This document shows, piece after piece, positions 9,351 to 45,306 of a DNA stretch of 64,000 bases. Positions within the stretch are counted from its first letter, which is position 1. Every line of letters begins with the position of its first letter. The DNA is from Patescibacteria group bacterium. GTDB taxonomy: Bacteria; Patescibacteriota; UBA1384; XYA2-FULL-43-10; 1-14-0-10-43-13. Made by a program: the position numbers and the translations under genes. Under the pieces are notes generated by a model that was given only the letters and a program-made list of their open reading frames with translations, was not told the origin of the DNA and searched no databases. The DNA lies in assembly GCA_041649155.1 (NCBI GenBank), contig JBAZNP010000001.1, positions 673,183 to 737,182 on the forward strand. The letters run 5' to 3'.

Positions 9351-9495
9351 GCAACAGATAGATATAAACAGAAAGACGCTATTGACTTTTTTGAGAATAT
9401 TATGTTAAATTATAAACAGTAAGGCCGTCGGTCTTTTTTAGATTTACTTAGGTTAATGGTTATTGAACGATAATGAATTTAAGGTTAAGGAGATT

Positions 9496-27606: not shown

Positions 27607-27646
27607 AAGGCGGAAAGAAGAGGGTAGAAAATGAAAAGGAGGGGAA

Positions 27647-28402
27647 ATGCAATTGCCGAAAATTAATGTTGATTGGGGTAAAGTGGGGGATTTGAATATC
27701 CAGAATTTTGATTTTCATTCTCCTTTTGGGAAGCTAATCTTATTGATTTCCGCTATATTATTGCTTTCTTTTGTAACAAATTACCTTTTATCTAGGTCAA
27801 TATTTGGTAGGGGCTACCGGATTTTTGTTGCCCCTGGTGTTATTGTCCACGAATTTTCGCATGCTCTAATGTGTCTTGTAACCGGAGCAAAAATTTCCAA
27901 AATGTCACTCTTTGATAAAGAGGGCGGTAAAGTTGAACATACGTCTCCTAAAATACCGATTATCGGCCAGATTGTTATCTCTTTGGCCCCGATATTTTTT
28001 GGAGCGGTTGTAATATATTTCTTATCAAGAAGATTGGGAATAAATAGTGTGGATTTTGCTACTATCCATTTAACCAAAGAAGGGATAGCGGAACTTTTTA
28101 AATCAGTGTTCTCTAATCTCAATTTTCGGATTGCCAGCACTTGGATAATTCTTTATCTAGTCTTGTCTATCACTGCTACTTTAACACCAAGCTTTCAGGA
28201 TTTGAGAAACATTGTAGCCTCGCTTGGTTTTATTGGAATAATAATATTTTTGGTTTATAGATTTTCCGCATTTCGTTTTAATTTTAATCTGTTGGCACCG
28301 GATCAAATTGTTGTTTTATTGTCGACTGTATCTTTGTTATTGATTTTGGGCCTCATATTAAGTATCATACTTTATATTACATCTAAGCTAATAAGCAGAT
28401 AA
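27647..28402 (+). CDS. putative membrane zinc metallopeptidase (M50B-like, HExxH)
   Basis: Polytopic membrane protein with VHEFSHALMCLVTGAKI in a TM helix. Family assignment is tentative. Confidence 0.4.
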   Translation: MQLPKINVDWGKVGDLNIQNFDFHSPFGKLILLISAILLLSFVTNYLLSRSIFGRGYRIFVAPGVIVHEFSHALMCLVTGAKISKMSLFDKEGGKVEHTSPKIPIIGQIVISLAPIFFGAVVIYFLSRRLGINSVDFATIHLTKEGIAELFKSVFSNLNFRIASTWIILYLVLSITATLTPSFQDLRNIVASLGFIGIIIFLVYRFSAFRFNFNLLAPDQIVVLLSTVSLLLILGLILSIILYITSKLISR

Positions 28403-29830: not shown

Positions 29831-30622
29831 ATGACAGCGAAAAAAGTTGTAGAGATGGCCAACGAAGAAGTCATCGACGAGAAGAAAATTCTCAAAGAAG
29901 CAGAGGAAAGAGAAAAAGAGAGAAAAGCTGAGGAAGAAGTAGCAAAAGAAGAAGAAAAAAAGGCTGAAAAGGAAGAGAAGAAAGAAGAGAAGAAAAAAGT
30001 AGAGCAGAAGAAAAGAAAGCCTTTGCATGGTAAAAAATACAGGGAATTGGCCAAGCAGATTGAGAAAGACACGGAATATCCAATTGCAGAAGCGATTGAA
30101 TTAGCACTTAAGACTTCTCCTGTAAAATTTGACGCTACAATCGAAGCTCATTTTAAGATCAATCCTAAAGAAAAAAATATTCGAGGCATGATCACTCTTG
30201 CCGGCGGTCTTGTTAAAGAGAAGAAAGTGAAGGAAGTTACCGAAGGTAATGTTGACGAAGTGATCGCAGAGGTTAAGGCTGGTAAAGTTGATTTTGATGT
30301 GATGATCGCCGAACTAAAGGCCATGCCTAAACTAGCTCAGCTTGCAAAAGTACTAGGTCCTAAGGGCCTTATGCCTTCGCCAAAGGCTGGAACTGCTGTT
30401 GAAGATGTAGCTAAAGCAGTAGAAGAATTAAAGAGCGGCAAAGTTGAATACAGAGCAGATAAATTCAATATCGTTCATTTGGCACTAGGTAAAATATCTT
30501 TCGGTTCCGAAAGAGTTAAACAGAATTATGATGCAATTTTAAATGCTTTGCCATTTAAGAAGATTGAAACTATATTCTTGACTTCTACAATGGGTCCAAG
30601 CGTTAAGGTGGCCAGAAAGTAG
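29831..30622 (+). CDS. rplA: 50S ribosomal protein L1 with Lys/Glu-rich N-terminal extension
   Basis: ...[44 protein letters not shown]...[24 protein letters not shown] matches uL1. About 70 aa of extra charged N-terminal sequence. Confidence 0.9.
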
Positions 30623-32244: not shown

Positions 32245-33480
32245 ATGGCATTTGAATTAATCAAAAAATTAGATAACGGAGTTCGGGTTGGAAAACTAAC
32301 AACGCCTCATGGAGAAATTGAGACGCCTTTTTTTATGCCGGTGGGCACAGTCGGTAGTGTTAAGGGTGTATCGCCAAATGAATTAAACGAATTGGGTGCT
32401 CAAATAGTTCTGTCTAATACTTATCATCTGTATTTGCGTCCAGGAGAAAAACTAATTAAAAAACTTGGTGGACTGCATCAGTTTATGAATTGGAATAGGC
32501 CAATACTTACCGACTCTGGCGGATACCAAGTCTTTTCTTTGGGAAAAGACAATTCTAAATTTCTAATTTCTAATGACAAATCAAATTACAAAACCCAAAT
32601 AACAAATGTCCAAACATCTTTGGTTAAAATTACTGAGGATGGGGTTGAATTTAAGTCGCATTTAGACGGAAGTAAGCATTTTTTTACTCCTGAGAAAGTA
32701 ATCCAAATTCAACTTGATTTAGGGGTGGATATCTTGATGCCGCTCGATGTTTGTCCCAGCGGGAAGGCAACTCGGGAGGAGATTGAAGAAGCTTGCAAGT
32801 TAACAATATCTTGGGCAAAGCGTTCCAGAAAATATTTTCTGGAACAAGTAGAAAGTAGAAAGCTGAAAGATAACAGGCCACTTCTTCACGGAATAGTCCA
32901 AGGGGGATTGTATGAAGATTTACGCAGATATTGCGCTAAAGAGCTTATTAACCTTGATTTTGATGGATACTCAGTCGGAGGGTTGGCAGTTGATTTTGAA
33001 ACTCGTGATATGTGGAAGACTGTAAAATTGATGGGAGAAATTCTTCCCGAAAACAAGCAGAGATATTTAATGGGGGTTGGAACTCCTGACGACATTATTA
33101 AAGCAACGAAATTAGGCATGGACATGTTTGATTGTGTTTTGCCGACAAGATTAGCTCGTCACGGATCGGTTTATGTTAAAAATTGTCATTCCCACAACAA
33201 CCTTTGTCATTCCCGCGAAGGCGGGAATCCAGAGCCTGGATCCCAGATCGAGTCTGGGATGACAGACCATTATAAACTTATCAATCTTTTAAATTCCAAA
33301 TACAAAGAGGACGGGGGAGTGATCGATGAAGAATGCGCCTGTCCGGCTTGTAAAGGGGGATTTAGCCGTGCTTACATTTCGCACCTTCTAAGATCCAAAG
33401 AAATATTGGGACTGCGTTTAGCAACACTGCATAATCTACATCAGTATTTAGAACTGATGAGGGAATTAAAAAGTGAATAA
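32245..33480 (+). CDS. tgt: queuine tRNA-ribosyltransferase carrying an in-frame palindromic-element insertion
   Basis: TPHGEIETPFFMPVGTVGSVKG, LTDSGGYQVFSL, and zinc site CACPACKGG...SHL. About 30 extra residues (KNCHSHNNLCHSREGGNPEPGSQIESGMTDH) sit where other TGTs are contiguous; these are encoded by element E6. TATAAT lies 11 nt upstream of the ATG. Confidence 0.9.
   Translation: MAFELIKKLDNGVRVGKLTTPHGEIETPFFMPVGTVGSVKGVSPNELNELGAQIVLSNTYHLYLRPGEKLIKKLGGLHQFMNWNRPILTDSGGYQVFSLGKDNSKFLISNDKSNYKTQITNVQTSLVKITEDGVEFKSHLDGSKHFFTPEKVIQIQLDLGVDILMPLDVCPSGKATREEIEEACKLTISWAKRSRKYFLEQVESRKLKDNRPLLHGIVQGGLYEDLRRYCAKELINLDFDGYSVGGLAVDFETRDMWKTVKLMGEILPENKQRYLMGVGTPDDIIKATKLGMDMFDCVLPTRLARHGSVYVKNCHSHNNLCHSREGGNPEPGSQIESGMTDHYKLINLLNSKYKEDGGVIDEECACPACKGGFSRAYISHLLRSKEILGLRLATLHNLHQYLELMRELKSE
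33185..33265. repeat. palindromic mini-element E6 inserted in-frame in tgt
   Basis: gtcattcccacaacaacctttgtcattcccgcgaaggcgggaatccagagcctggatcccagatcgagtctgggatgacag: same termini and the same second hairpin as E2. Confidence 0.7.
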
Positions 33481-33652
33481 CAAAAATTGTTGTGGATAAG
33501 CAAATAATTTATTAATATTTTGAATTGACATTCGTTTTTCCGTCGAGGATAATAGAGCTAGACCCTGCAGGTCCATAGCGGTGCGTTTCGTGGGGATATT
33601 TTGCAACTTAGGGTTGCTGTTTAATTAGATTAGTAGGAAAGAGGAGGACGTT

Positions 33653-33856
33653 ATGAGTGATGATTACCAGGATGACCAAACAACCAAGGAAGAGGAAGCT
33701 GTAGAAGAAACAGATGATTCAGACGAGGAAACTGAAGGAGAAGAGACAGAAGCTGCTGAAGCACCTGTAGAAGAGAAAGAAGAAGATGAAACCGAAGAAG
33801 CTGAAACTCCAGAAGAAGAAGACGAAGACGAAGACGAAGATAAAGAAGAAGAGTAA
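33653..33856 (+). CDS. small highly acidic protein (67 aa, D/E-rich)
   Basis: Strong RBS aggaaagaggagg; sequence composed mostly of E/D/T. A terminator follows. Confidence 0.4.
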   Translation: MSDDYQDDQTTKEEEAVEETDDSDEETEGEETEAAEAPVEEKEEDETEEAETPEEEDEDEDEDKEEE

Positions 33857-33884
33857 ACTTGGCTGGATAATATCCAATTTTAAT

Positions 33885-33928
33885 AAAAAAGCTCCGATCG
33901 ATATAGTATTGTAATCGGGGCTTTTTTC
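33885..33928 (+). terminator. Rho-independent terminator
   Basis: aaaaaagctccgatcgatatagtattgtaatcggggctttttt. Confidence 0.6.
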
Positions 33929-33966: not shown

Positions 33967-33995
33967 TTGACAAATAAAATTTGGTATGCTATAAT
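33967..33995 (+). promoter_or_regulatory. near-consensus sigma70 promoter (TTGACA-N17-tgcTATAAT) driving a 400-nt structured leader/ncRNA and the downstream module
   Basis: ttgaca, 17 nt, tataat, with extended -10 TG. Followed by about 400 nt of GC-elevated sequence full of short hairpins before the first ATG at 34403. Confidence 0.6.
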
Positions 33996-34402
33996 CCAAT
34001 GTTCTTAAGGTGAGGGGATTCACAGCGAGAACCCAGTTACCTCAAGAAAATACATTACAATTTAGTGCGATAGTGTGCTGCATAATTCATTTCTTGGCCT
34101 CGTGCCAAGACGTAGGTTCCCCCTCCGCCTGCGGAATTATGTGGCACAGTATTGCACTTTTTTTAAACCTTTGGTTTAAAACCCAGCGTAGCTTTAGCGA
34201 AGTTGGGTAGATGCAATTGCATTTTGACAACTAAATATCCTTCAGAGCAAGTTGCGCTCCGTGCAACTAGTAGAAAGTGAAAGGCGGTAAGTAGAAAGTT
34301 TTACGCCCAGCTTGCTCTGAGGGAATAACACCCTCAAAAGGGCCGCCAAAACGGCGTTTAATTACGCCGCTTACGCGGCACTACATTTGGAGGGATCGTA
34401 GA

Positions 34403-35068
34403 ATGAGAACACTTGTAACTTTGGTCGTTATTATAACGACGCTGTTTCTTTTCTCGCCTAATTCCTACTGCGCCATTGGCGTTGTAGTGGAAGACGGTAA
34501 CGGACCTGTCGCACAGGGTCAGGAAGCTCAAACTAGTATTCAGGAATCTCCTCAAGATAGTGGTGAGCAGGTTGCACAAATGCCAGCTGAGGAACGGGTT
34601 GAAGAGATGGGGACCTTAGTTGACTCTCAAGTTTCGTGTGTCAATTCTGATATTTCGAAATTTAGAGAAGCTCGAGCTAATCTGGCTCGAAGGAATGAGA
34701 GTGTAGCAGTCCACGTTCTTGAACGGAAGGTTGCCAGTCTTCAGTCGAGACTGAGAATATTTAAATCTATGAAGGTTGAAATAAAAGATCTTCGTGAGAG
34801 AATGTTCACTCTCGATGACAAGAAAGATATTGAGGCGCTCAAGAAGCTCGTTGATTCATGGACGAGCAAGTTCGTTGATGATGAGGAATTCACAAAAAAG
34901 CTCCAATCTTATGTCACAAAAGAAGACTTGGAGCAGCAGTTGTCTTCTTATGCCACTAAAACAGAAGTGAATCACATCGGAAATCGAGCGAGAAATTCTT
35001 ATGTGCTTTCATGGTTAGCAATTGTGGGAGTGATTCTTCCTCCGATTTACAAGAAAGTGCGTGGGTAG
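34403..35068 (+). CDS. hypothetical secreted/membrane protein with coiled-coil region
   Basis: Signal-like N-terminus MRTLVTLVVIITTLFLFSPNSYCA, central heptad-like charged region, C-terminal TM YVLSWLAIVGVILPPIY. Confidence 0.45.
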   Translation: MRTLVTLVVIITTLFLFSPNSYCAIGVVVEDGNGPVAQGQEAQTSIQESPQDSGEQVAQMPAEERVEEMGTLVDSQVSCVNSDISKFREARANLARRNESVAVHVLERKVASLQSRLRIFKSMKVEIKDLRERMFTLDDKKDIEALKKLVDSWTSKFVDDEEFTKKLQSYVTKEDLEQQLSSYATKTEVNHIGNRARNSYVLSWLAIVGVILPPIYKKVRG

Positions 35069-35115: not shown

Positions 35116-35148
35116 CGGGGCGGCCCATATGGGCCGCCCTCTTTGTGT
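35116..35148 (+). terminator. hairpin terminator/attenuator
   Basis: ggggcggcccatatgggccgcccc-like 9-bp GC stem followed by tctttgtg (weak U-tract). Confidence 0.45.
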
Positions 35149-35217
35149 CCAATAAACTAAACTGTTGTGCAAATAGTTGATTTGTTTTATTATAAATATA
35201 TACAAGCTAGGAGGGAG

Positions 35218-38200
35218 ATGGTCGAATCGGGACAACAGCCACCACAAGAACTCGAAGGATTACGAGGTGATCTTGTTAATTTAAAGCACGAAGAAATTTC
35301 TAGTGAAGAAGATGAAATTTTGGCGGAAATTTCCAAGGCTAGACAAGAGATCGAAAATAATCCTGAAAAATTTGAGGAAATTTTGGCGTCTTTAGATGCT
35401 GATGCACTTCTTTTAAAAAGGATTTTAGAAGAAAAAAAGAAGTTTTGGGGACTTGGTGAAAAAATATCAAATATTACTGTTGATAAAATACAAAATGAAA
35501 AATGGAAAAAAGTACTAAAAATCGGCGCTAAACTTGGCGGGGGAATCATTGCATCAAGGTTGATATCAATAGGTGTTAAGAGTGCTTTTAACGTTTCTAA
35601 TCCGGTAACTGGAGCAATCTCCGGCGCTGCTATGGGGGGGTTCTGGGGCTATGTCAGGGGGAAAGACAAGACTGAATCGGCAAACGCATGGATGAAAGAG
35701 CTGAATATTGAAGAGCTGGAAACTGAAACTGTTGATGAATATTCTAACGAAGATTTAGGAAAAGTTATTGGTATTTTAAAAAATGCAATTGAAGATGGTA
35801 AAAATGGAAGGATGAGAGGCAATGCTGTTTCTAAAATTAATCTAGCTAGGAAGTATCGAGTAGCAAACAAAGAGCTTGTAAGGCGTACTAATGAGATAGA
35901 ACAGGATGAAAGTGGTTCAGTAATCGATCGAATCGATGAATTGAGCCAGGACGCAGAGGTTGAGGGAAAAGCCATATCGGAGTTATCTGGTAGGGAGCAT
36001 GAAGAACTTTATAAAATTCTCACTGAGCGTAATAAATATACGGTTGTTAAAGAAGGAATCAAAGGAGCTCTTGTCGGTGCTGGAGTTGGCTATGTGGCAA
36101 ACTGGGCTATGGATAAGATTTTTCACGTTGATGGTAATTCAGCTAAAGATGCAGCGTTGGAAGCAAAGAAGGAATCAATTAGACAAGCACATGATGCTAA
36201 AATTGATCAATTTGGGAATAATGATCTTCATAGCTTTAATACAGATCAAACTACCCACTTGCAATTAGTTGAAACAAAGGGAGACCTGCATGGGTTTAAT
36301 GACACTGAACTATCAAGCTTTACAGAGTCAGTAAATAAATCCGGTAATGTCTGGGAATTAATAAGGGATAGCCATTCCGATCTTCATAACATTGATTTAC
36401 AGGCTCCAATTGATGGAGAAACGGGCAAAAACATCGGTCAATTCATACTTGAGCATAAGGAAGCATTTTCTAACCTCGATCCGAATATACAAAGAGAAAT
36501 GTTGTCATTTCCAAGCTTAGCAGAAGATATTTTTAAAGCAGCAACTGAAAATTCATCAGCATCTGCGAGCGCAATTTCGGGTAACGCATTAGGGACTTTG
36601 GGTTTGGCTGCAATTGGCAGTGGTGGCATTTATGCTCTCGCGGCTAAAAAAGAAAAAGTGGCTAATGAAAAAATCGAAGCTTACGAGCCTAGACAACAAT
36701 CAGCATCTGGTGGAGGTGATTCTGGTCCTGACGGGACTCCATCTCCTGATGCTGGTGGAACTAGTGAGCAGAAGCCTCGAATTGTAGCGCCTAAAGGCAG
36801 ATTTGACGACAGTAATCTTGGAGAAGGCGGGCTGGCAGAAAACAACGGAGTTAATCCGGTCGGACTGGTTGAAAGCAAACCTGTTGATGTTGAAAAATAC
36901 AATCCGACCAAAGAAGATTACAAAAATGCAGAAGAGTTTTGGAAAATAAATGCGGGCAAAAAAGAAGTTAAAGAACATCTGGACGAATGGTTGTCTATAT
37001 TTATCAATCAAGGCAAATTCAATCTTAGAATTAACGGTGATGAAATTAGCGAAGTCGAAGCTTTAGAAGTTGCTGCATATAAGATTATGATTTTCGAAAA
37101 AGGTTGTGGAATTGGTGAAATTAAGATCGAAAGAAATAATGGTGTGTATTCTGCAGAGGCTGAGATCGTCGCTTTAAATGGTGGTGCTTCTGAAAAACCA
37201 GAATTGTCGCCTCAAGCTGCCGGAGTTGCAAGCGAGGGAGTAAACGCTGAAGCGGAAGACTATGGAAATAAAGAATGGATTTCTCGTGAAGCAGGAGTTG
37301 TTTTGCATGGCGCTCATGGATCAATAGCTGTCAATGCTGGCGATGTAGTGACGGAAAAATTAGGCAATCGTTTTACTATACGTGAATTATATGTCGATGA
37401 AAATCAAGATAATATTAAGATTGTTTGGGAAGATGGAAGTGATAATGTAAACACATCCGATAAATGGTATGAGTTTTTTTGGGAGGCAAAGCAAAGAGAA
37501 GAAGTGGGAGGAGGCACTGGCTTGAGTAACGAAGGCGAAGATGAGCCGGAAGTTTTTGTCCCAAGAAAATTAAATCCTGATAGGGCAGAGGGTTTAATTA
37601 AATCAGCTTCTGAAAATAACACAAATTTAAATATTCCAGAACTTGGTTTACAGAAATTTAATGTTAATAATAGTGATCAAGTTGTTTTGCTTGGCGATTT
37701 AGGAGATAATCTTGACTATTTAAAACAAGACATAGACTTTGGGTTTGTGCGGATAAATGAAATACAGGGAGAGTTAAGGGAAAAGGGTGTACAGACACCG
37801 GATTATAAGTTTTCTATAGAAAATGGTGAAAATTTCATTGAGTCTTATCTTGAGCCATTGAATGTGTTTATGGAAAAAATTTACAATCATTTGCCTCATA
37901 ATAAAGTTGAATTACCGCCAAATATTGAAAGCCAGGATTTAAGTGAAGCAATTGAGCGATTTGAAAGCGGATTCGAGAAGGTTAAAGCAAAATTAGAATT
38001 TTTTGGAGAATCGGCCAAAATTGAAAAGGTTCAAAATTTTTTAAGTCTTGCAAGAGCAATTAGGGATAATGATATCCAAAAGATTAATCCAAAATCAATT
38101 TCAAATGTGATTATGCAAACGTGGCATCCTTATAACAGCAACAAAGAGACTAATTGGATATATAAAAATGCCGAGGTTCTTAACCAACTATTGAAGGAAA

Positions 38201-38745: not shown

Positions 38746-39096
38746 ATGAATAACGATGATATGAACAAAGCGGACAATATTGAGGAAACTAATGATATAA
38801 TATTGCTGTATCAGAAAAAAATCATGGAAGAACTAGGGCTTGATAAGCTTTCCGAAAAAGAAAAAGAGGAAGCTGAAGCAAAAATTGCCAACCTTGTTAA
38901 TAACAGGGTGGTGAATATTATTTTGGCGTATTTACCGGAAGAGAAAGCCGAAGAATTTAAAGTTTTGATTGAGCAAGAAAAACTGGATGAAATAATTAAA
39001 TTTTTAAAAACAACAGTGCCTGATATTGAAGTTAAAATTGCAAATGATCTAATGCTGTTAAGAAAAGAATTAATAAGCAAATTGGCGAAAAAATAA
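38746..39096 (+). CDS. hypothetical protein (116 aa, K/E-rich)
   Basis: ORF with RBS ggagggg. Stop overlaps the next start (ATAATG). Confidence 0.4.
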   Translation: MNNDDMNKADNIEETNDIILLYQKKIMEELGLDKLSEKEKEEAEAKIANLVNNRVVNIILAYLPEEKAEEFKVLIEQEKLDEIIKFLKTTVPDIEVKIANDLMLLRKELISKLAKK

Positions 39097-40886
39097 TGTT
39101 ACAAAATACGGAAACAAAATCTAAGTCAGGATTACTGATGGACGCATCTGCTCATTTTAGTGAATCAGGAACTTCTGATAACTTTTTGGAGCTTCAAAAG
39201 GCTCTTAGCGCTGCTTCTGAGGCGGATAAAAATAAACTACGTGCAAGATATGCAGGTAAAGAAGGTTCTGCGGTCGAAGCGTCTCAAGAAAAAGGTATTG
39301 AGACCAGTGAGCAGGAAAAATTTGATGAATTGATGGAGGCTGTGAATAAGTTTGAGGAATTGGCCAAAGAGACTAAGAACATTGAAAAAGAACTTCAGGA
39401 AGCCGAAAGGGCTCATGATGAACATTATAGTAGCTATGCTGGGAAGATTACTTTGGCTGATCAAAATAGAGAGAGGGGATTGGTTACACTTAGAGCTGAA
39501 GTCGGACAAAAGCTCGAAGAAATGATTGTATTAAAGGGTGATATTCTAGACAAATTATCAGATATTAAATCTCATGAACTGAGGGCGAAAACATATGAGC
39601 GATTTGAAAGAAAGAAACCTGATGAAGTAGGAATGTCCAGTGAAGTAAAGTTGGAAACAAAATCCGACAAACATACAGATGATTTAAAGCATCGAACACT
39701 TAATCATAAGGCTAGGGAAATAGTTAAGTCTAATCTTGAAAAAATAGCAAAAAAGAAAACAGAAGCGGAAAAAATTGTCGTAGAAGTGGCCCCTGAAAAT
39801 GTTGAGCCTTCTGTACAGGAAGAAACCGCTGTCGCAAATGATTTGAAAGAAGAAGAAATTAGAAATAATTCAGAAGATCATCTTGCGCCTGGGATTCAAA
39901 TTGGCCGAGAAGAGGAGAGTGAAACACCTAAACCAGAAGAAGTTCAGACTAAGTCTCCAAAGGATATTATTGAACAAAAAGCGGTTATTGATATTCCTGA
40001 ACAAAAACCCCAGCCAGTTGCAGAAAATAAATCTGAAATTAAAGACAAACCATCCGAACCTCCGGTTGAAATCATGGAAATTGGACCAGATGGCGATCCT
40101 GTTAGCGTTACAGATAATGAAGGAGACTTTAGGGAAGACGAGATAACTTTTGTTGATGGTTCGGCTCAGCAGAACATTCCACAATCAAAAGTGGGGGAAA
40201 GTGAAAAGCAAAAAGTAGATTCTTCAGAATTTATCGATAAAATCAGAGAAAAACAATCCGAAATTGCAGAAAGAATGGGACTGGAACTTAAGAAACCAGT
40301 TGCCGAACCGATAAGGAAAATTGACGACTTTTTGCCGCCAACATCCAGAATTGAACAGGCAGCGGAAACAATAGAGCAAGATTTAAATAAACCAATCGCA
40401 GCTGCAAAAGCAGAACCAATTATTGATGAGAAGACTGTGAGTTCTATTCCTGTTATCCCCGAGAAGTCGGGGATCCAAGATAGTGATAGATTAGTAGATT
40501 CCCGCCTACGCGGGAATGACAATGTGGAGGGCGGGAATGACAATGCGAAAATGGCTGAATCGGACGATCAAATATTAACTCAAAATATTCAAACAGCAGA
40601 GCCCGTTGTCCCTGAGCAGAAAATCGAACCGGTTCAGCCGGTTACGGAAGAAGTGGGTAATAATGATGCAGGCAATATGATAGATATCAAGCCGGCAATC
40701 GAGGCAAAAGAAATTCAATTAGAGCAGCCTTTGCCAGAGCAAAAGAGGGGATTCTTCGGGAGAATTTTTGGCGGGAATAACGCTGATAGGCATGGTGCTG
40801 AAGTGATAGCTGGAAAGGGTGATGAATTAACCGCTGACCACATACATCAAATATTGGGTGCTAATGAAGAGAAAGAAGCGGCATAG
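39096..40886 (+). CDS. hypothetical charged/low-complexity protein (596 aa) with an in-frame palindromic-element insertion
   Basis: Coiled-coil-like E/K-rich sequence. Element E7 encodes ...IPEKSGIQDSDRLVDSRLRGNDNVEGGNDNAKM. Confidence 0.4.
   Translation: MLQNTETKSKSGLLMDASAHFSESGTSDNFLELQKALSAASEADKNKLRARYAGKEGSAVEASQEKGIETSEQEKFDELMEAVNKFEELAKETKNIEKELQEAERAHDEHYSSYAGKITLADQNRERGLVTLRAEVGQKLEEMIVLKGDILDKLSDIKSHELRAKTYERFERKKPDEVGMSSEVKLETKSDKHTDDLKHRTLNHKAREIVKSNLEKIAKKKTEAEKIVVEVAPENVEPSVQEETAVANDLKEEEIRNNSEDHLAPGIQIGREEESETPKPEEVQTKSPKDIIEQKAVIDIPEQKPQPVAENKSEIKDKPSEPPVEIMEIGPDGDPVSVTDNEGDFREDEITFVDGSAQQNIPQSKVGESEKQKVDSSEFIDKIREKQSEIAERMGLELKKPVAEPIRKIDDFLPPTSRIEQAAETIEQDLNKPIAAAKAEPIIDEKTVSSIPVIPEKSGIQDSDRLVDSRLRGNDNVEGGNDNAKMAESDDQILTQNIQTAEPVVPEQKIEPVQPVTEEVGNNDAGNMIDIKPAIEAKEIQLEQPLPEQKRGFFGRIFGGNNADRHGAEVIAGKGDELTADHIHQILGANEEKEAA
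40455..40545. repeat. palindromic mini-element E7, in-frame inside the CDS
   Basis: atccccgagaagtcggggatc ... attcccgcctacgcgggaatgacaatgtggagggcgggaatgacaatg has the same arms as E6 (cccgcgaaggcgggaat). Confidence 0.6.
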
Positions 40887-40963
40887 AATCTTATTAACCT
40901 CACCTAACCCTGCCTACCGGCAGGCAGGCTCTCCTTGAAAAGGAGAGGGAGCAAAAAAACAAA

Positions 40964-43501
40964 ATGACAGACGATTATTATAATGGATATGAAAGTTCAA
41001 GTGGATCAAATTGGTGGATTTGGTTGGTTGTTTTTGTTGTCGCAATTATTCTGATTTATATTATTTATCAGAAGATAAGAAAGTCAGTATTACGAAAAAA
41101 CCAAATTAATTTGACTAAAGACTGGACAATGTACAAGGTTCTAGTGCCAAGAGAAAGGCATGCAGGAGAAGATGATCAACGCAAAAATTTTCAGGAAATG
41201 TTGTCAGTTATTGAACCTTTTTATGCAAACTTGAATGCAATGTTTGATAACACTGTCTCAAAAAGACTTCAGGGGCAGGATCATATTTCGCTGGAATTAA
41301 TTGCTAAAGATAATTTAATAAGTTTCTACATCGGTTGCTCCAAGAAAATATCTAATAGTATTTTAAAAAATCTCCATGCCCAATATCCTTATGCAGAAAT
41401 TACTGAAGATAAAAACTATTCAGTTTTTCCAAATAAGCCGTTAAAAATTGATATTGCCAATTTGGGGCTAATAAAAAGATATATTTTTCCCCTAAAAACA
41501 TACAAAACATTGGAAGAGGATCCCCTTAATGCTTTATCTAATTCACTATCGAAGTTGTCCGAGGATGAGCTGGCAGGGGTGCAATTTTTACTAAGGCCAA
41601 CCACAGGTGTCTGGAGAACGGCGGGAGAGAGGGCGGCGTTCAATATTCAGCACGGAAAATCCCGTGTTTCTCATTCAAACTCAGCTACAGTTAGAGCAGG
41701 GGAGGCATTTTTTAATTTTCTAGGTTCCGCGACGCAAACTGCGCAGGGAAAAGGGGAAGGCGAGCACTCCGAGCTATATGATCCAAAGAACCCAATGAAG
41801 TTAACTCCAATGCAGGAAAGTCAAATAAAGCTTTTAGGAGAAAAAGTCTCCAAGCTTGGATTTGAGTGTCAAATAAGAATTGTGAGTGTTGCTCCCACTA
41901 TGGAAAAAGCTCGCCAAAATACTAAAGAAATCGCTTCAATATTCAATCAATTTAATTCTCCTGACTCCAATGGGCTGAATATCAAATATCCAAAAAAGAG
42001 ATCAGAAGACATAGCGAACTATGTTTTCAGGCTTTTCGGTAGGGGACCGAGATTAATTTTAAATACTGAGGAGTTATCTTCCCTATATCATTTACCAAAT
42101 CGTTTTATTGAAACCCCAAATATTGCGTGGCTGTTAGCTAAAAAAGAGCCACCTCCATCAAATTTGCCAAAAGAAGGGACAATAATCGGAAACAGTGTAT
42201 TTAGGGGGAGTGAACTTCCAATTAAAATCAAAGAGTTAGATCGGCTGAGGCACGTTTATATGATAGGTAAAACCGGTGTTGGTAAAACCGTGCTTTTCGA
42301 AAATATGATCCTTCAGGATATAAAAGAAGGAAAGGGTGTCTGCTACCTTGATCCAAATGGAGATGCGGCAGAATACATTTTAAGCCGGATACCAAAAGAA
42401 AGAGCCGACGATGTAATTTACTTCAATCCAGCTGATATAGAGAGGCCAATGGGATTGAATTTGCTTGAATGGAAGACTCCTGAGCAGAGAGATTTCTTAG
42501 TTCAGGAAGCTATTCAAATATTTTATAAACTTTTTGATCCGGGGCAGACTGGAATTGTTGGACCGCAGTTTGAACACTGGATGAGAAATGCAGCCTTAAC
42601 TTTGATGGCTCATCCAGAAGGTGGAACCCTTATTGATATTCCAAGATTGTTTACTGACCCTGATTTTGAAAAGGACCGTGTGAAATATGTGCAAGATCCA
42701 GTAGTGAAAAACTTTTGGGAGAAGCAAATGGCTAAAACTGCTGATTTCCATAAGTCAGAAATGTTAAATTATTTCACTTCAAAATTTGGTCGCTTTATGA
42801 CCAATGATATGATGAGAAATATTTTGGGTCAGACTAAGTCATCATTTGACTTCAGGGATGTGATGGATAACAAGAAAATTCTGATCTGCAATTTATCAAA
42901 AGGATTAATAGGGGAGATCAACGCTTTTCTTCTGGGTATGATAATCGTATCCAAGATAGCGATCGGCGCTTTTTCCCGTCAGGATTTAACAGAAGAAGAG
43001 AGAATTCCCTTTTATCTTTATGTTGATGAATTCCAGAACTTTATTACAGATGTTTTTGCAACTATTCTTTCTGAGTCGAGAAAATACAAATTATCTTTAA
43101 ATATCACAAACCAGTACATTGCGCAGCTGGATGAAAAAATACGTGATGCTGTTATTGGTAATGCCGGCACTTTGGTGTCATTCAGAATTGGTGCGGCGGA
43201 TGCGGACTTTTTGGTTAAAGAATTTGATCCTCTTAAGCCTGACGATATGACCAATATTGATAAGTATAATTTTTATATAAAAATGCTGATTGATGGCGCA
43301 CCGACAAAGCCGTTTAATGGTCAGAGTTTGGCTCCCGATCCCAATGCAAATAGTCAGCTTAGCGCAGCTATAAAAGAATTATCAAGACTGAAATATGGGA
43401 AGCCAAAAGATCAAGTTAATAATGAAATATTAGATAGAACTAAAGTTGACTCTATAGATTTACCAGGGATTAGTTCTACGGATGCAGTGAAAACAGCATA
43501 G
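40964..43501 (+). CDS. TraG/VirD4/TraD-like (type IV coupling protein-like) P-loop ATPase with N-terminal TM and a 400-aa N-terminal domain
   Basis: TM WWIWLVVFVVAIILIYIIY. Walker A IGKTGVGKT (near 42264). Walker B/TraG-D_C-like YLYVDEFQNF. Arginine-finger/Q motif SESRKYKLSLNITNQYIAQL. Ends with IGNAGTLVSFRIGAADADFL. Confidence 0.6.
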   Translation: MTDDYYNGYESSSGSNWWIWLVVFVVAIILIYIIYQKIRKSVLRKNQINLTKDWTMYKVLVPRERHAGEDDQRKNFQEMLSVIEPFYANLNAMFDNTVSKRLQGQDHISLELIAKDNLISFYIGCSKKISNSILKNLHAQYPYAEITEDKNYSVFPNKPLKIDIANLGLIKRYIFPLKTYKTLEEDPLNALSNSLSKLSEDELAGVQFLLRPTTGVWRTAGERAAFNIQHGKSRVSHSNSATVRAGEAFFNFLGSATQTAQGKGEGEHSELYDPKNPMKLTPMQESQIKLLGEKVSKLGFECQIRIVSVAPTMEKARQNTKEIASIFNQFNSPDSNGLNIKYPKKRSEDIANYVFRLFGRGPRLILNTEELSSLYHLPNRFIETPNIAWLLAKKEPPPSNLPKEGTIIGNSVFRGSELPIKIKELDRLRHVYMIGKTGVGKTVLFENMILQDIKEGKGVCYLDPNGDAAEYILSRIPKERADDVIYFNPADIERPMGLNLLEWKTPEQRDFLVQEAIQIFYKLFDPGQTGIVGPQFEHWMRNAALTLMAHPEGGTLIDIPRLFTDPDFEKDRVKYVQDPVVKNFWEKQMAKTADFHKSEMLNYFTSKFGRFMTNDMMRNILGQTKSSFDFRDVMDNKKILICNLSKGLIGEINAFLLGMIIVSKIAIGAFSRQDLTEEERIPFYLYVDEFQNFITDVFATILSESRKYKLSLNITNQYIAQLDEKIRDAVIGNAGTLVSFRIGAADADFLVKEFDPLKPDDMTNIDKYNFYIKMLIDGAPTKPFNGQSLAPDPNANSQLSAAIKELSRLKYGKPKDQVNNEILDRTKVDSIDLPGISSTDAVKTA

Positions 43502-43562
43502 ATAGTTAATAAATGATAGTCTAATGATAGTCTATAGTTAATGGACTTCATAGAAAAAATCG

Positions 43563-43596
43563 CCTGTTATTTCAAAGGCGGTTTTTTAATTAAAAA
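43563..43596 (+). terminator. Rho-independent terminator
   Basis: aaaaaatcgcctgttatttcaaaggcggtttttt. Confidence 0.55.
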
Positions 43597-43670
43597 ATGT
43601 TGACGTCTGATCAATTATGTGGTAGGATAATTGCGTAAAAGGGGATAAAAAAACAAACAATCGGAGCATT

Positions 43671-44177
43671 ATGCCTCAAGAAAAAGAATTACAAGCGATT
43701 AAACACTTACTTGATTCTGCTGAAAATAATATCAGGCAGGTAAAAAGTATACTATTTGCGTCTGAAATTACAAAAAAAGCTCAAGATCTTGAGGAAAGTG
43801 GAGATGGCACAGTGATAGAAGGCGTGTTCGATGGTGAGAATATGATCGGTCCTGATAAGACAAAGTATCCAACACCTCCAAACTATGCGTCAAAATCAAA
43901 ACTTATTCCCGGTGATGTATTAAAATTGACAATACTTCCAGACGGATCATTTCTTTTCAAGCAAATTGGCCCGATAAAAAGAAAGAAGATCATTGGTGAG
44001 CTTGAAGAAATATCAGAAGGAAAGTTTATTGTTAATGCAGAAGGCAGGAAATATAGAGTTCTCCTTGCATCTGTGACATATTTTAAGGCTAATAATGGGG
44101 ACAAATTAACCATTATAGTGCCAGAAAAAGATGAGTCAGAGTGGGCAGCAGTAGAAAATATATTAGAAGGTAAATAA
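43671..44177 (+). CDS. hypothetical protein (168 aa)
   Basis: ORF with RBS ggag. No recognisable motif. Confidence 0.35.
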   Translation: MPQEKELQAIKHLLDSAENNIRQVKSILFASEITKKAQDLEESGDGTVIEGVFDGENMIGPDKTKYPTPPNYASKSKLIPGDVLKLTILPDGSFLFKQIGPIKRKKIIGELEEISEGKFIVNAEGRKYRVLLASVTYFKANNGDKLTIIVPEKDESEWAAVENILEGK

Positions 44178-44178
44178 A

Positions 44179-45213
44179 ATGACAACAATAAAGAATTTTA
44201 GTCCCTACAAAATTGTTAAAAAGGCAATGGAAAGCTTAAAACCAAATGAGGTTAAAGTTATTGCAGGTCGTTTTGGTATTGATGAAGACAGAAAGACTCT
44301 TTCCTCTATTGGTAAAGAATTAAATCTTTCGAGAGAAAGAATTCGTCAAATTGAAAAAGAGGGACTTAAAAAGCTTGCATCTAAAATCGTCGATCGTAAA
44401 AATGAATATCTTGAATTAATCATTCAATCATTTAAGCAAAGCGGTGGAATTGCCAAGCATGAAAATATCGCAAATAAGTTTTTGGAAGAGAGTTTGAAAT
44501 CAAATAAAAATGAATTTAATGCTTTGCATTTGATTTTCTTTCTCATGCCGGAACTTAAGAAGATCGATAAGACTAGAGAACTGGAAGCAAGCTGGGTCAT
44601 TGCTTCTTTATCTAAAGATGAAGTTCTTGGAATTATTAATAATTGGGTTGATCATCTACAAAAAGTGAAAAAACCAACTACGATAGATATTCTCGTAAAA
44701 GAAAATCCTAGTCATAATAAATATGAAATGACCTTTTTGTCCGAATTACCTTACATCAGTAAAAAGCTGGTTAAAACAGAAAATGACTTTATTGGATTAG
44801 CATCTTGGCCTGAAGTAAATCCTAAAAATGTGCGCGATAAAATTTACTATATCCTAAAAAAAGAAGGTAAACCTGTTCACTTTGAAATAATTGCAAAGAA
44901 GATTAATGAAGAAAAATTTTCAAAGAAAAAAGTTGTAAAAGCCACTGTTCACAATGAATTAATTGCTGACGACAGATTTATTCTAGTAGGCAGAGGAATT
45001 TATGCACTTAGAGAATGGGGATACGAGCCCGGAACAGTGAGAGATATTATAAAAAATATTTTAGATATTCATAATCATTCTATGAAGGTTGATGAAATTG
45101 TTTCAGAAGTTCTAAAACAAAGAACTGTTAAGAAAAACACTATTTTGATTAACTTGCAAACAAAGTCGGATTTTAAAAAAGCCGGCAAAGATAGCTACGA
45201 ACTCGCTAAGTAA
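44179..45213 (+). CDS. sigma-70 region-4-like HTH protein with 270-aa C-terminal extension (not a canonical sigma factor)
   Basis: VKVIAGRFGIDEDRKTLSSIGKELNLSRERIRQIEKEGLKKLASKI matches the sigma70 region 4.2 HTH. No region 2. Start overlaps the upstream stop. Confidence 0.5.
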   Translation: MTTIKNFSPYKIVKKAMESLKPNEVKVIAGRFGIDEDRKTLSSIGKELNLSRERIRQIEKEGLKKLASKIVDRKNEYLELIIQSFKQSGGIAKHENIANKFLEESLKSNKNEFNALHLIFFLMPELKKIDKTRELEASWVIASLSKDEVLGIINNWVDHLQKVKKPTTIDILVKENPSHNKYEMTFLSELPYISKKLVKTENDFIGLASWPEVNPKNVRDKIYYILKKEGKPVHFEIIAKKINEEKFSKKKVVKATVHNELIADDRFILVGRGIYALREWGYEPGTVRDIIKNILDIHNHSMKVDEIVSEVLKQRTVKKNTILINLQTKSDFKKAGKDSYELAK

Positions 45214-45306
45214 TTAGCAAAAACATTGAGAATGATGTAAAATAGTGTTAGAAAGTAAACGCGATATAATTTGGCGTTTACTTGTAAAACAAAATGGGGG
45301 AGCTCT

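What the first reader, a model, noticed from the sequence alone, without database searches (positions are those of the whole stretch)
33967..34402. Consensus promoter followed by a 400-nt GC-elevated, hairpin-dense untranslated region: candidate ncRNA or riboregulatory leader
TTGACA-N17-tgcTATAAT is the best promoter in the window. The next 400 nt contain many short perfect hairpins and a 9-bp long-range pairing (cagagcaag ... cttgctctg). The hairpins include agttgcgctccgtgcaact, aaacctttggttt, atgcaattgcat, cgccaaaacggcg, ggcgtttaattacgcc and gccgcttacgcggc. GC is clearly above the local background. The only ORF in the region (34010-34210) looks spurious. This could be a structured RNA such as a leader, riboswitch or a free sRNA.
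Basis: seen in the sequence. Interest (0 to 1): 0.6.

Follow-up and report, generated by a model that had tools for sequence, protein, structure and literature searches.

The report
New small RNA with C-rich loop
The interval encodes a small structured RNA that is in no RNA catalogue, from Berkelbacteria-like ultra-small bacteria; its unchanging C-rich loop looks suited to pair with ribosome-binding sites, and it heads the long leader of a surface-protein gene.

Summary
The promoter at 33967-33995 is the only perfect TTGACA-N17-TATAAT in the 64 kb, and the next 400 nt fold far better than shuffles (z = -9.6).

The region has two parts.

(1) 34001-34164 is a discrete small RNA. It has a 5' hairpin and a Y-shaped core. 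The 23-pair closing stem of the core, plus U7, forms an intrinsic terminator. The apical loop is UCCCCCUCC. A covariance model found 64 copies (49 distinct) in Berkelbacteria-like genomes and metagenomes. They always lie downstream of rplA-rplJ-rplL-tgt and are often tandem. 96.9% of cells are paired and 23 of 26 pairs show compensatory changes. Rfam 15 has no match.

(2) 34165-34402 is the read-through leader of a signal-peptide protein gene. It carries a boxA-like element, a 13-bp long-range stem around a hypervariable interior, and a CCCUCAAA segment predicted to sequester the Shine-Dalgarno sequence.

The most likely function is inferred, not shown: an anti-Shine-Dalgarno small RNA like 6C or the cuckoo RNAs, coupled to the mRNA that follows it. 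This is a new RNA family of a known kind.

The parts
33967..33995 (+). Sigma-70 promoter: -35 TTGACA (33967-33972), 17-nt spacer, extended -10 TGcTATAAT (33987-33995). The start site is inferred at about 33999-34002.
   Evidence: The same CTTGACAAA...TGnTAnAAT promoter precedes the RNA in about 30 related loci.
34002..34048 (+). 5'-terminal hairpin P0. Its 5' strand is the conserved GUUCUnAGGGUGAG motif.
   Evidence: MFE fold. The first 27 transcribed nt are identical in the 5 closest relatives. The consensus hairpin has 9 pairs, 4 of them with compensatory change. L104 changes GAGGG/CCCUC to GACGG/CCGCC.
34064..34158 (+). Y-shaped sRNA core. P1 is 34064-72 with 34150-58. A 2x2 internal loop is GU/AG. 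P2 is 34075-88 with 34134-47. P3 is the variable hairpin 34093-34109. P4 is 34111-34133.
   Evidence: CM R1 scores 99.6 bits, E = 6e-21. Covariation: 96.9% of cells paired, 23/26 pairs with compensatory change, 0/500 shuffles as good, slid controls 25-50% paired. Coordinates checked.
34118..34126 (+). Apical loop UCCCCCUCC. CCCCCUCC is invariant in all copies and is complementary to GGAGGGGG (SD-like).
   Evidence: Alignments A2 and A3. It is invariant also in the about 14 copies that were found without using the loop as a search pattern.
34158..34164 (+). U7 tract directly after P1. Together with P1 it forms an intrinsic-terminator-like 3' end of the about 165-nt sRNA.
   Evidence: A U-run follows the last copy in most loci and is missing after the first copy of most tandem pairs (L004 is the reverse).
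34165..34177 (+). Small hairpin AAACC-UUU-GGUUU.
   Evidence: It is kept with a compensatory change (GAACC/GGUUC) in L148.
34182..34207 (+). Hairpin with a symmetric GUA/GAA internal loop (CCCAGC-GUA-GC-UUUA-GC-GAA-GUUGGG).
   Evidence: The same motif, with covarying stems, occurs in L010, L181, L092, L139 and L098 between the sRNA and the boxA-like element.
34219..34230 (+). boxA-like element GCAUUUUGACAA. The family consensus is G-N-A-C-Y-U-U-A-A-C-A-A.
   Evidence: The E. coli consensus GYTCTTTAANA is taken from PMC5725501. This window copy is a weak match: the best site within 200 nt has 3 mismatches, and that site is not this element.
34239..34323 (+). Long leader hairpin. The outer 13-bp stem (34239-51 with 34311-23) is conserved. 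The interior (34252-34310) is hypervariable.
   Evidence: The outer stem is kept in L001, L168, L148 and L174 while the interior is unrelated.
34331..34338 (+). CCCUCAAA. It is predicted to pair with UUUG-GAGGG (34386-34394) and so sequester the SD. Alternatively it pairs with GAGGG (34319-34323).
   Evidence: MFE folds. The pairing is preserved with changes in L001 (CCUCAAA with UUUGAGG) and L148 (CUCUC with GAGGG).
34342..34380 (+). Cluster of short GC hairpins (CGCC/GGCG, GGCG/CGCC, GCCGC/GCGGC) just upstream of the SD.
   Evidence: Equivalent GC hairpins precede the SD in nearly all related loci.
34389..34405 (+). SD GGAGGG (34389-94) and the ATG (34403) of the 221-aa protein with a signal peptide and a C-terminal anchor. 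The ORF runs to 35068 and its terminator is at 35117-35147.

Best explanation
Shown by sequence comparison. The interval is one transcription unit driven by a consensus sigma-70 promoter. Its first about 165 nt (34001-34164) are a lineage-specific small RNA found in Berkelbacteria-like Patescibacteria. The RNA has a 5'-terminal hairpin and a Y-shaped core. The long closing stem of the core plus U7 has the form of an intrinsic terminator. The apical 9-nt loop always reads N-CCCCCUCC.

Inferred. Most transcripts stop at the U-tract and give an abundant free sRNA. The C-rich loop acts as an anti-Shine-Dalgarno seed. It pairs with G-rich ribosome-binding sites (GGAGGG(G)) and blocks translation initiation, without needing a chaperone, as the 6C, cuckoo/CcsR, RsaE and RNAIII loops do. 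Candidate targets are the minority of genes here with strong G-rich SDs: the gene on its own read-through mRNA, the DUF5663 gene and the M50B-like peptidase gene.

Also inferred. A fraction of polymerases read through the terminator and cross a boxA-like element, which probably recruits Nus factors and protects the long untranslated RNA. They then transcribe a 235-nt hairpin-rich leader in which CCCUCAAA can sequester the SD of the secreted-protein gene. Synthesis of the sRNA and of that mRNA would therefore be coupled.
For: Promoter. Folding: z = -8.25 for the sRNA and -5.38 for the leader, with the plus strand 25 kcal/mol better than the minus strand.

Family: 64 CM hits with E < 1e-7 (49 distinct) in the window, L001, L003-L010 and about 40 metagenome loci. 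None occurs in the 65 viral contigs searched that carry the same 15-mer.

Covariation: 96.9% of cells paired, 23/26 pairs with changes on both sides, 0/500 shuffles as good, slid controls 25-50% paired. Many G-U pairs, and 99.6 versus 26.8 bits for the two strands, point to RNA rather than DNA.

Loop: CCCCCUCC is invariant, including in copies found through tgt synteny or as tandem partners.

Expression signals: each unit has a conserved strong promoter. A U-run follows the last copy. This genome uses canonical hairpin + U terminators elsewhere.

Coding: there is no conserved ORF. Known families: no Rfam family matches at E <= 10 in the window or E <= 0.5 in 20 member loci.

Read-through leader: a boxA-like motif follows the last copy in most loci. 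It matches GYTCTTTAANA with <= 2 mismatches in 19/33 loci against 15% of shuffles, and L006 matches perfectly. In L163, L168 and L084 there is no room for a promoter between the U-run and this motif.

Targets: full GGAGG SDs are rare on the neighbouring housekeeping genes (4 of about 76 starts). They are the rule on the gene after the leader. They recur as GGAGGG(G) on the M50B-like peptidase gene in 5 loci, with GGAGGAGG in a sixth, and as CGGAGGGG on the DUF5663 gene.

Precedents for C-rich or anti-SD loop sRNAs: PMC6486639, PMC4615179.
Against: There are no expression data, so the 3' end, the efficiency of the terminator and the existence of a free sRNA are all inferred.

No perfect 8-nt complement (GGAGGGGG) exists anywhere in the 64 kb. 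Duplex energies of the loop against 59 start regions are no better than those of shuffled loops. The excess of G after GGAGG in SDs is small, 33% against 21%.

The strict single-locus synteny with the downstream gene, together with a boxA-like element reachable only by read-through, fits a purely cis-acting role equally well.

Sequence conservation inside stems P1 and P2 (GUGCGG.., GUGCUG) is not explained by a seed-pairing model and hints at a protein or processing partner.

Loop invariance in the metagenome set is partly by construction, because those loci were fetched with a 17-mer that covers the loop.

The window's own boxA-like site is a poor match to the E. coli consensus.
Confidence: 0.5

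Rival explanations
1. Purely cis-acting leader module. The hairpin with its C-loop is part of the 5' UTR of the downstream surface-protein gene. It acts only on its own transcript. It could be a 5' stabiliser, a protein- or factor-controlled attenuator that sets how many polymerases continue, or an anti-SD element that meets the mRNA's own strong SD.
For: The RNA is always at the same locus, directly upstream of a leader and a signal-peptide gene. There is no promoter between the U-run and the boxA-like motif. The downstream gene almost always has a strong GGAGG SD, while neighbouring housekeeping genes do not. The leader contains a chain of mutually exclusive CCUUC / GAGGG / CCCUC / GGAGGG pairings. 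A 5'-terminal hairpin and stacked GC hairpins are typical mRNA stabilisers (own knowledge).
Against: Tandem copies each have their own consensus promoter. A canonical terminator would be counter-productive for a simple stabiliser. A stabiliser does not need an invariant 8-nt loop across loci whose Tgt is only about 50% identical. The complementarity to the downstream SD does not extend beyond GGAGG(G). Loci whose downstream gene has a weak SD (L009, L003, L136, L193) keep the loop.
Confidence: 0.25
2. Protein-binding RNA. The long, sequence-conserved stem with its conserved mismatches and the C-rich loop form the docking site of a protein, which the RNA titrates or scaffolds. Candidates are a KH-domain protein that reads C-rich single strands, a dsRNA-binding protein or RNase III, or RNA polymerase or a Nus factor.
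For: Stem sequences, not only pairing, are conserved: GUGCGGUA, GUGCUG/CAGCAC, and an invariant A before a conserved 2x2 internal loop or C-A mismatch. A boxA-like element lies adjacent. No convincing mRNA target was found in the window.
Against: No candidate protein gene co-varies or co-localises beyond general synteny. The genes between tgt and the RNA differ among loci. A single conserved loop that is complementary to the universal SD core is more simply explained by RNA pairing.
Confidence: 0.15
3. A highly divergent version of a universal housekeeping RNA (SRP/4.5S, 6S, RNase P, tmRNA, 5S) that Rfam models fail to recognise in this lineage.
For: There is a single conserved locus per genome, a very strong promoter, a size of 75-170 nt and a long hairpin shape.
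Against: No hit to any of these models even at E <= 10 or in 20 other members. ARAGORN finds no tmRNA. The RNA lacks the SRP domain-IV motifs and GNRA tetraloop, the 6S central bubble and 5'-3' closing stem, and the RNase P conserved regions (seen directly). Tandem, differing copies are common.
Confidence: 0.03
4. Not an RNA at all: chance hairpins, a small protein gene, or a DNA-level palindrome such as a recombination or replication site.
For: An ORF of 66 codons overlaps the region.
Against: z-scores are -8 to -10. There is compensatory covariation with many G-U pairs and strong strand asymmetry. The ORF is frameshifted in relatives. A promoter and a U-tract sit in the right orientation.
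Confidence: 0.01

Closest known systems
6C RNA (B11/Mcr family, Rfam RF01066) of Actinobacteria
   Same: It is a phylum-wide conserved, strongly structured sRNA. Its only highly conserved single-stranded parts are C-rich hairpin loops. These pair with G-rich sites on several mRNAs without an RNA chaperone (PMC6486639).
   Different: There is no sequence or CM similarity. Here there is one C-loop rather than two. The loop sits on a Y-shaped core with a 23-pair closing stem that also serves as terminator. The RNA lies at the head of an mRNA leader with a boxA-like element, and the phylum is different (Patescibacteria).
Cuckoo / CcsR (RSs0680) sRNAs of Alphaproteobacteria
   Same: An invariant anti-SD-like loop motif (CCUCCUCCC) sits on stems that vary freely by compensatory change. 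Copies occur in tandem clusters and in conserved genomic neighbourhoods (PMC4615179).
   Different: The loop motif differs (CCCCCUCC). Each unit has a single loop rather than 2-4 adjacent hairpins. There is a long closing stem and a three-way junction. Each copy has its own consensus promoter, and the unit is followed by a boxA-like element and an mRNA leader.
RsaE/RoxS and RNAIII C-rich (UCCC) motifs of Firmicutes (own knowledge; also discussed in PMC4615179)
   Same: Unpaired C-runs pair with SD sequences to block initiation.
   Different: The sequences and folds are unrelated, and there is no Rfam match.
boxA / Nus-factor antitermination signals outside rRNA (suhB 5' UTR, CRISPR array leaders)
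   Same: A short GYUCUUUAANA-like element is placed early in a long untranslated RNA (PMC5725501; PMC7665894). The family consensus here is G-N-A-C-Y-U-U-A-A-C-A-A, and one locus (L006) matches perfectly.
   Different: Position 3 is usually A, not U. The window copy (GCAUUUUGACAA) is degenerate. The element lies downstream of a terminator-like hairpin. NusB/NusE binding is untested, and it is not known whether this lineage has Rho.
Leader-derived trans-acting sRNAs made by premature termination (e.g. riboswitch-derived SreA/SreB of Listeria, attenuator sRNA rnTrpL of Sinorhizobium; own knowledge)
   Same: One promoter yields both a short terminated regulatory RNA and, by read-through, the downstream mRNA.
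   Different: No ligand-sensing or leader-peptide mechanism is apparent here. Additional tandem copies have their own promoters.

Membership tests
Any Rfam 15 family (4227 models) | Covariance-model score at or above the family's gathering threshold | tested here: not met
   No hit in the window at gathering score. No hit overlaps 34000-34402 even at E <= 10. Nothing overlaps members in 20 other loci at E <= 0.5.
6C RNA (RF01066) | Two adjacent hairpins, each with a loop of six or more C; a match to the CM | tested here: not met
   There is one C-rich loop (five C, U, two C) on a Y-shaped or single long hairpin. There is no CM hit.
Cuckoo/CcsR sRNAs | 2-4 adjacent hairpins each carrying CCUCCUCCC in the loop (PMC4615179) | tested here: not met
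   The loop is N-CCCCCUCC in all 49 distinct copies, with one such loop per unit.
Base-pairing (trans-acting) sRNA | A discrete transcript with its own promoter and terminator | tested here: met
   This is met at sequence level only. The promoter is consensus. P1 + U7 forms a terminator-like end. A U-run is conserved after the last copy. Transcript ends were not measured.
Base-pairing (trans-acting) sRNA | A conserved single-stranded seed | tested here: met
   CCCCCUCC is invariant in a 9-nt apical loop.
Base-pairing (trans-acting) sRNA | Conserved complementary sites in target mRNAs | tested here: inconclusive
   GGAGGG(G) SDs occur on the M50B-like, DUF5663 and downstream genes. There is no 8-mer complement in the window, and duplex energies equal those of shuffled controls.
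Intrinsic (Rho-independent) terminator | A stable stem immediately followed by a U-tract on the transcribed strand | tested here: met
   The stem 34064-34158 is followed by UUUUUUU at 34158-34164. Termination efficiency cannot be tested with these tools.
boxA (Nus-factor loading site) | Match to the boxA consensus GYUCUUUAANA in an untranslated leader | tested here: inconclusive
   In the family, <= 2 mismatches occur in 19/33 loci against 15% of shuffles, with one perfect match. The window copy GCAUUUUGACAA is weaker. The lineage's own rRNA boxA was not available for comparison.
boxA (Nus-factor loading site) | Binding of NusB/NusE and an antitermination effect | not testable with these tools
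   This needs EMSA or in-vitro transcription.
Riboswitch | A conserved ligand-binding aptamer with many conserved unpaired or junction nucleotides, plus an alternative expression platform | tested here: not met
   The only conserved unpaired elements are the 9-nt loop and a 2x2 internal loop. P3 and the junctions vary freely, and a 74-nt class lacks the junction entirely. No antiterminator alternative to P1 was found.
SRP RNA / 6S RNA / RNase P RNA / tmRNA / 5S rRNA | Family CM match and hallmark motifs (domain IV loops, central bubble, P4 and the conserved regions CR-I to CR-V, tag ORF, loop E) | tested here: not met
   The motifs are absent from alignment A3.

The most novel reading that the evidence does not exclude
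The C-loop hairpin and the boxA-like element work together as a co-transcriptional device. A Nus-type complex bound at boxA stays on the elongating polymerase. This keeps the adjacent anti-SD hairpin next to the RNA exit channel, so that the hairpin captures the strong SD of the surface-protein gene as it emerges. The geometry would be the one that lets rRNA leaders find their distant pairing partners. The terminator in between would set the ratio of free sRNA to regulated mRNA. This would be a new way of coupling antitermination factors to translational control, in bacteria with very few protein regulators.
Probability: 0.07. Interest if true: 0.8.

Novelty: new member of a known kind. Interest (0 to 1): 0.52.

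Why it matters
In the literature searches run here I found no description of regulatory RNAs in Candidate Phyla Radiation (Patescibacteria) bacteria. These organisms have tiny genomes and, to my knowledge, few transcription factors (I did not check this here).

This is a well-supported RNA family with 49 distinct sequences and strong covariation. It has an rRNA-grade promoter and sits at a fixed locus between the ribosomal-protein/tgt cluster and a block of genes for surface proteins and type-IV-secretion-like proteins. That block is the kind of gene set expected to mediate attachment to host cells.

If the invariant CCCCCUCC loop really is an anti-Shine-Dalgarno seed, it would show that the chaperone-independent C-rich-loop strategy known from Actinobacteria, Firmicutes and Alphaproteobacteria has also arisen in CPR bacteria. 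It would also give a concrete handle on post-transcriptional control in organisms that cannot yet be grown alone.

The family can be added to RNA catalogues at once, which would improve annotation of these genomes.

Tried and rejected
Known-family searches. Rfam at gathering and at E-value thresholds on the window and on 35 related loci found nothing relevant. ARAGORN found no tRNA or tmRNA.

Searches for relatives. A genome-contig scan with the 221-aa downstream protein found no relatives. That protein has only one other homologue in 5.8 billion sequences. The 15-mer GGTTCCCCCTCCGCC in viral contigs gave 70 hits; none of the 65 I searched with the CM matches, so those are chance hits.

Target prediction. 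Duplex folding of the loop against 59 start regions of the window was no better than shuffled loops. No GGAGGGGG occurs in the window.

Pseudoknot between the conserved 5' GAGGG and the loop's CCCUC. I rejected this as the main reading. In L104, GAGGG changes to GACGG together with its local partner (CCCUC to CCGCC), while the loop stays the same.

16S rRNA mimicry or fragment. The P4 stem CGUAGG/CCUGCG equals the helix-45 stem, GUGCUGCAU equals part of helix 34, and CCUCC equals the anti-SD. I rejected this because the P4 stem covaries freely in the family (AUAGG/CCUAU, CAAGG/CCUUG and others) and the GGAA loop of helix 45 is absent. The complementarity of GGUUCCCC to the helix-45 loop was rejected because the UU is not conserved.

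An internal promoter for the downstream gene. None is conserved, and in several loci there is no space for one.

The hypervariable interior of the long leader hairpin as a repeat or mobile insert. No other copy exists in the window or in the 270 loci held.

The overlapping a:b / b:c / c:d pairings of the GC hairpins as an attenuator switch. These are probably a trivial result of tandem, similar hairpins, so I make no claim.

Literature searches for a prior description in CPR or Berkelbacteria found none.
Full report
ORGANISM AND CONTEXT

The downstream 221-aa protein is identical to a hypothetical protein of a 'Patescibacteria group bacterium' MAG on a 798,787-bp contig.

The genes around the finding, all on the plus strand, run as follows:
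- a release factor, an M50B-like peptidase, ybaB and pth;
- rplA, rplJ, rplL and tgt (32245-33480);
- a 67-aa acidic ORF (33653-33856) with its own promoter and terminator;
- the finding;
- a 221-aa protein with a signal peptide and a C-terminal anchor (34403-35068), followed by a terminator (35117-35147);
- a large protein, a DUF5663 protein, a 596-aa protein and two proteins resembling type-IV-secretion coupling proteins.

uL1 carries the N-terminal extension described for Berkelbacteria: its L1 domain starts at residue 94 (PMC9297842). The closest Tgt relatives are labelled Berkelbacteria or Patescibacteria. The window has no tRNA gene and no Rfam hit.

CHECKING THE OBSERVATION

TTGACA-N17-TGcTATAAT at 33967-33995 is a 12/12 match with an extended -10. 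It is the only perfect match in the window, where 0.06 are expected.

The 402 nt after it fold at -163.1 kcal/mol against -107.9 +/- 5.8 for dinucleotide shuffles, z = -9.56. The complementary strand is 25 kcal/mol weaker.

GC is 0.445-0.48 against a window mean of about 0.37.

A 23-pair stem (34064-34088 with 34134-34158, interrupted by a 2x2 internal loop) closes a three-way junction. It is followed directly by U7, which is the form of an intrinsic terminator.

RELATED SEQUENCES

The only close homologue of the downstream protein lies on a Logan contig (L001) that carries the same element. The first about 200 nt after the promoter are almost identical, although the flanking proteins are only about 80% identical. 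Further downstream only stems are kept.

BLASTN and nhmmer against loci fetched with Tgt found the core downstream of tgt in L003-L010. Twelve copies were aligned (A2). RNAalifold gave a structure in which 20 of 27 pairs show compensatory change. I built a covariance model, R1, from this alignment.

A metagenome scan with the 17-mer AGGTTCCCCCTCCGCCT returned 119 loci. R1 recognises 64 copies (49 distinct) with E < 1e-7, spread over the window, L001, L003-L010 and about 40 metagenome loci. It finds none in the 65 viral contigs searched that contain the 15-mer by chance. The window has exactly one copy, at 34060-34167 (99.6 bits).

STRUCTURE AND CONSERVATION

On the 49 distinct sequences, 96.9% of pair cells form standard pairs. 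23 of 26 pairs have changes on both sides. No shuffle out of 500 reaches any of the five measures. Sliding the partner by 1-3 columns drops pairing to 25-50%. That alignment was fitted to the model. The independent MAFFT/RNAalifold result agrees with it.

G-U pairs are frequent, and the reverse strand scores about 27 bits against about 100. The structure therefore belongs to an RNA read from the plus strand.

There are two size classes:
- a 100-120-nt Y shape, with P1, a 2x2 internal loop, P2, a variable P3 and P4;
- a 74-nt single long hairpin.

The invariants are the apical loop N-CCCCCUCC, the top of P4, and parts of P1 and P2 (GUGCGG.., GUGCUG/CAGCAC).

One caveat applies to the loop. The metagenome loci were fetched with a pattern that covers the loop, so invariance there is partly by construction. 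However, the about 14 copies found through tgt synteny, and the tandem partner copies, carry CCCCCUCC as well. The base after the loop (G, or A in L008 and L139) covaries with its partner, so it is a closing pair and not part of the motif.

SIGNALS AROUND THE CORE

Almost every unit is preceded by CTTGACAAA-N-TGnTAnAAT. The initial transcribed sequence is conserved: GUUCUGAGGGUGAG in the long class and GUCGUUA..GAGGGAA in the short class. It forms a 5'-terminal hairpin with 9 consensus pairs, 4 of them with compensatory change.

Tandem pairs of differing copies, often each with its own promoter, occur in at least 12 loci. A U-run follows the last copy and is usually missing after the first copy of a pair.

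SYNTENY

The metagenome loci were fetched without reference to tgt. Even so, 39 of the 50 RNA-bearing loci show tgt, and where the flank allows rplL-rplJ-rplA-pth, upstream of the RNA. The other 11 have less than 1 kb of upstream flank.

Relatives whose Tgt is at most about 53% identical, and that have ample downstream flank (L011-L013), lack the RNA. The family is therefore a single-locus feature of one clade.

THE SECOND HALF (34165-34402)

The same order of elements recurs downstream of the last copy in most loci:
- sometimes a hairpin with a GUA/GAA internal loop (window 34182-34207);
- a motif G-N-A-C-Y-U-U-A-A-C-A-A;
- a long hairpin whose outer stem is conserved and whose interior is unrelated even between near-identical relatives (window 34239-34323);
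- short GC hairpins;
- a strong SD;
- a gene for a signal-peptide protein.

The motif resembles boxA, whose consensus is GYTCTTTAANA (PMC5725501). It has at most 2 mismatches in 19 of 33 loci against 15% of shuffles, at most 1 mismatch in 6 loci against 1.7%, and a perfect match in L006. The window copy, GCAUUUUGACAA at 34219-34230, is a weaker version.

In L163, L168 and L084 the motif starts 10-20 nt after the U-run. It can therefore only be transcribed by read-through from the sRNA promoter.

boxA elements are known outside rRNA operons, on the suhB leader and on CRISPR arrays. There they protect long untranslated RNA from Rho (PMC5725501, PMC7665894).

In the window the MFE fold pairs CCCUCAAA (34331-38) with UUUG-GAGGG (34386-94), which sequesters the SD. 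The same CCCUC can instead pair with GAGGG (34319-23), which is itself the 3' end of the long hairpin. These pairings persist, with changes, in L001 and L148.

The leader alone folds with z = -5.38.

MECHANISM: WHAT IS SHOWN AND WHAT IS INFERRED

Shown by sequence comparison:
- a conserved, strand-specific, structured RNA with promoter and terminator signals;
- an invariant C-rich loop;
- a read-through arrangement into a structured leader with a boxA-like element.

Inferred:
- the terminated RNA accumulates as a free sRNA;
- its loop pairs with G-rich ribosome-binding sites.

Support for the pairing idea:
- The loop is the complement of GGAGGGGG, that is, the SD core plus a G-run.
- Full GGAGG SDs are rare on the neighbouring housekeeping genes (4 of about 76 start regions). 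They are usual on the gene behind the leader.
- G-extended SDs recur on the M50B-like peptidase gene: GGAGGG(G) in 5 loci and GGAGGAGG in a sixth. They also occur on the DUF5663 gene, as CGGAGGGG in the window.
- C-rich or anti-SD loops are the working parts of 6C (PMC6486639) and of the cuckoo/CcsR family (PMC4615179).

Evidence against, or missing:
- There is no 8-mer complement in the window.
- Duplex energies are no better than those of shuffled loops.
- The excess of G after GGAGG in SDs is modest, 33% against 21%.
- Sequence conservation inside the stems suggests an additional partner.
- There are no expression data at all.

I put about 0.5 on the combined statement. The existence of the RNA family itself I put at more than 0.95.

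The rivals are a purely cis-acting leader module (0.25), a protein-binding RNA (0.15), a divergent housekeeping RNA (0.03), and an artefact, coding region or DNA element (0.01).

COMPARISON WITH KNOWN SYSTEMS AND NOVELTY

No Rfam 15 family matches the window region or 20 other members. Literature searches found no description of this RNA.

By its features the RNA works like the C-rich-loop sRNAs (6C, cuckoo/CcsR, RsaE, RNAIII). It fails the defining features of each of those families, namely the number of loops, the loop motif and the CM match. It also combines features they lack:
- a closing stem that doubles as the terminator;
- a position at the head of an mRNA leader;
- an adjacent boxA-like element.

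I file it as a new family (a new member) of a known kind of regulator, found in a phylum for which I found no described sRNAs. Interest is moderate. The family is solid and can be added to catalogues. Its biology remains to be tested, in particular the link to the surface-protein and secretion-like gene block of an episymbiotic lineage.

Noticed in passing
window 33525-33925: A second near-consensus promoter (TTGACA-17-GATAAT, 33525-33553) is followed by a leader of about 100 nt. Next come a 67-aa ORF made almost only of Asp, Glu and Thr (33653-33856) and a clean terminator (about 33886-33925). The whole unit is conserved in L001 (about 1943-2310).
   Followed up: partly
L001 2388-2900: The closest relative carries an extra 140-aa ORF (2430-2852) between the acidic ORF and the sRNA promoter. 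It has its own promoter-like site and terminator and no Pfam hit on record. The window lacks it.
   Followed up: no
window 34252-34310; L001 3234-3308; L168 about 9380-9420: The interior of the long leader hairpin is completely unrelated between genomes whose flanking stem and sRNA are nearly identical. This is a small hypervariable cassette inside a conserved stem. No other copy exists in any sequence held.
   Followed up: partly
L003, L004, L006, L008, L009, L098, L101, L104, L108, L118, L136, L139, L177, L193, L195: The sRNA occurs as tandem pairs of clearly different copies. One recurrent subtype has the loop stem GGCC-CCCCCCUCC-GGCC and no U-run. It is followed within about 20 nt by the promoter of the second copy.
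   Followed up: partly
window 27638-27649; L004, L009, L168, L174 (and GGAGGAGG in L104) at the homologous gene: The M50B-like peptidase gene keeps an unusually strong G-rich SD (GGAGGG(G)) across loci. Its neighbours (ybaB, pth, rplA, rplJ, rplL) have no GGAGG at all.
   Followed up: partly
window 35167-35220: The 1181-aa ORF listed from GTG 35167 more likely starts at ATG 35218, behind the SD GGAGGG (35210-15). It is preceded by the terminator of the 221-aa gene, so the 221-aa gene appears to be monocistronic with the sRNA and leader.
   Followed up: partly
window 38746-48393: A block of genes with few or no family matches contains a DUF5663 protein, two proteins resembling type-IV-secretion coupling proteins (40964-43501, 45271-48393) and a protein with sigma-70 region 4 plus a HARE-HTH domain (44179-45213). 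Parts of this block stay syntenic with the sRNA in other loci.
   Followed up: partly
window 29831-30622: uL1 is 263 aa, and its L1 domain starts only at residue 94. This is the N-terminal insertion reported for Berkelbacteria.
   Followed up: yes
L003 10243-10275; L157 and L194 5' leaders: Short tandem repeats lie inside the transcribed leaders: (GTAA)n in L003 and AATTTCT repeats in L157 and L194.
   Followed up: no
window 1-64000; L174 8006-8189: No tRNA gene occurs in 64 kb. The ribosomal L10 leader (RF00557) reaches Rfam's threshold only in L174, and not in the window or the other loci, although rplJ is present in all of them.
   Followed up: no
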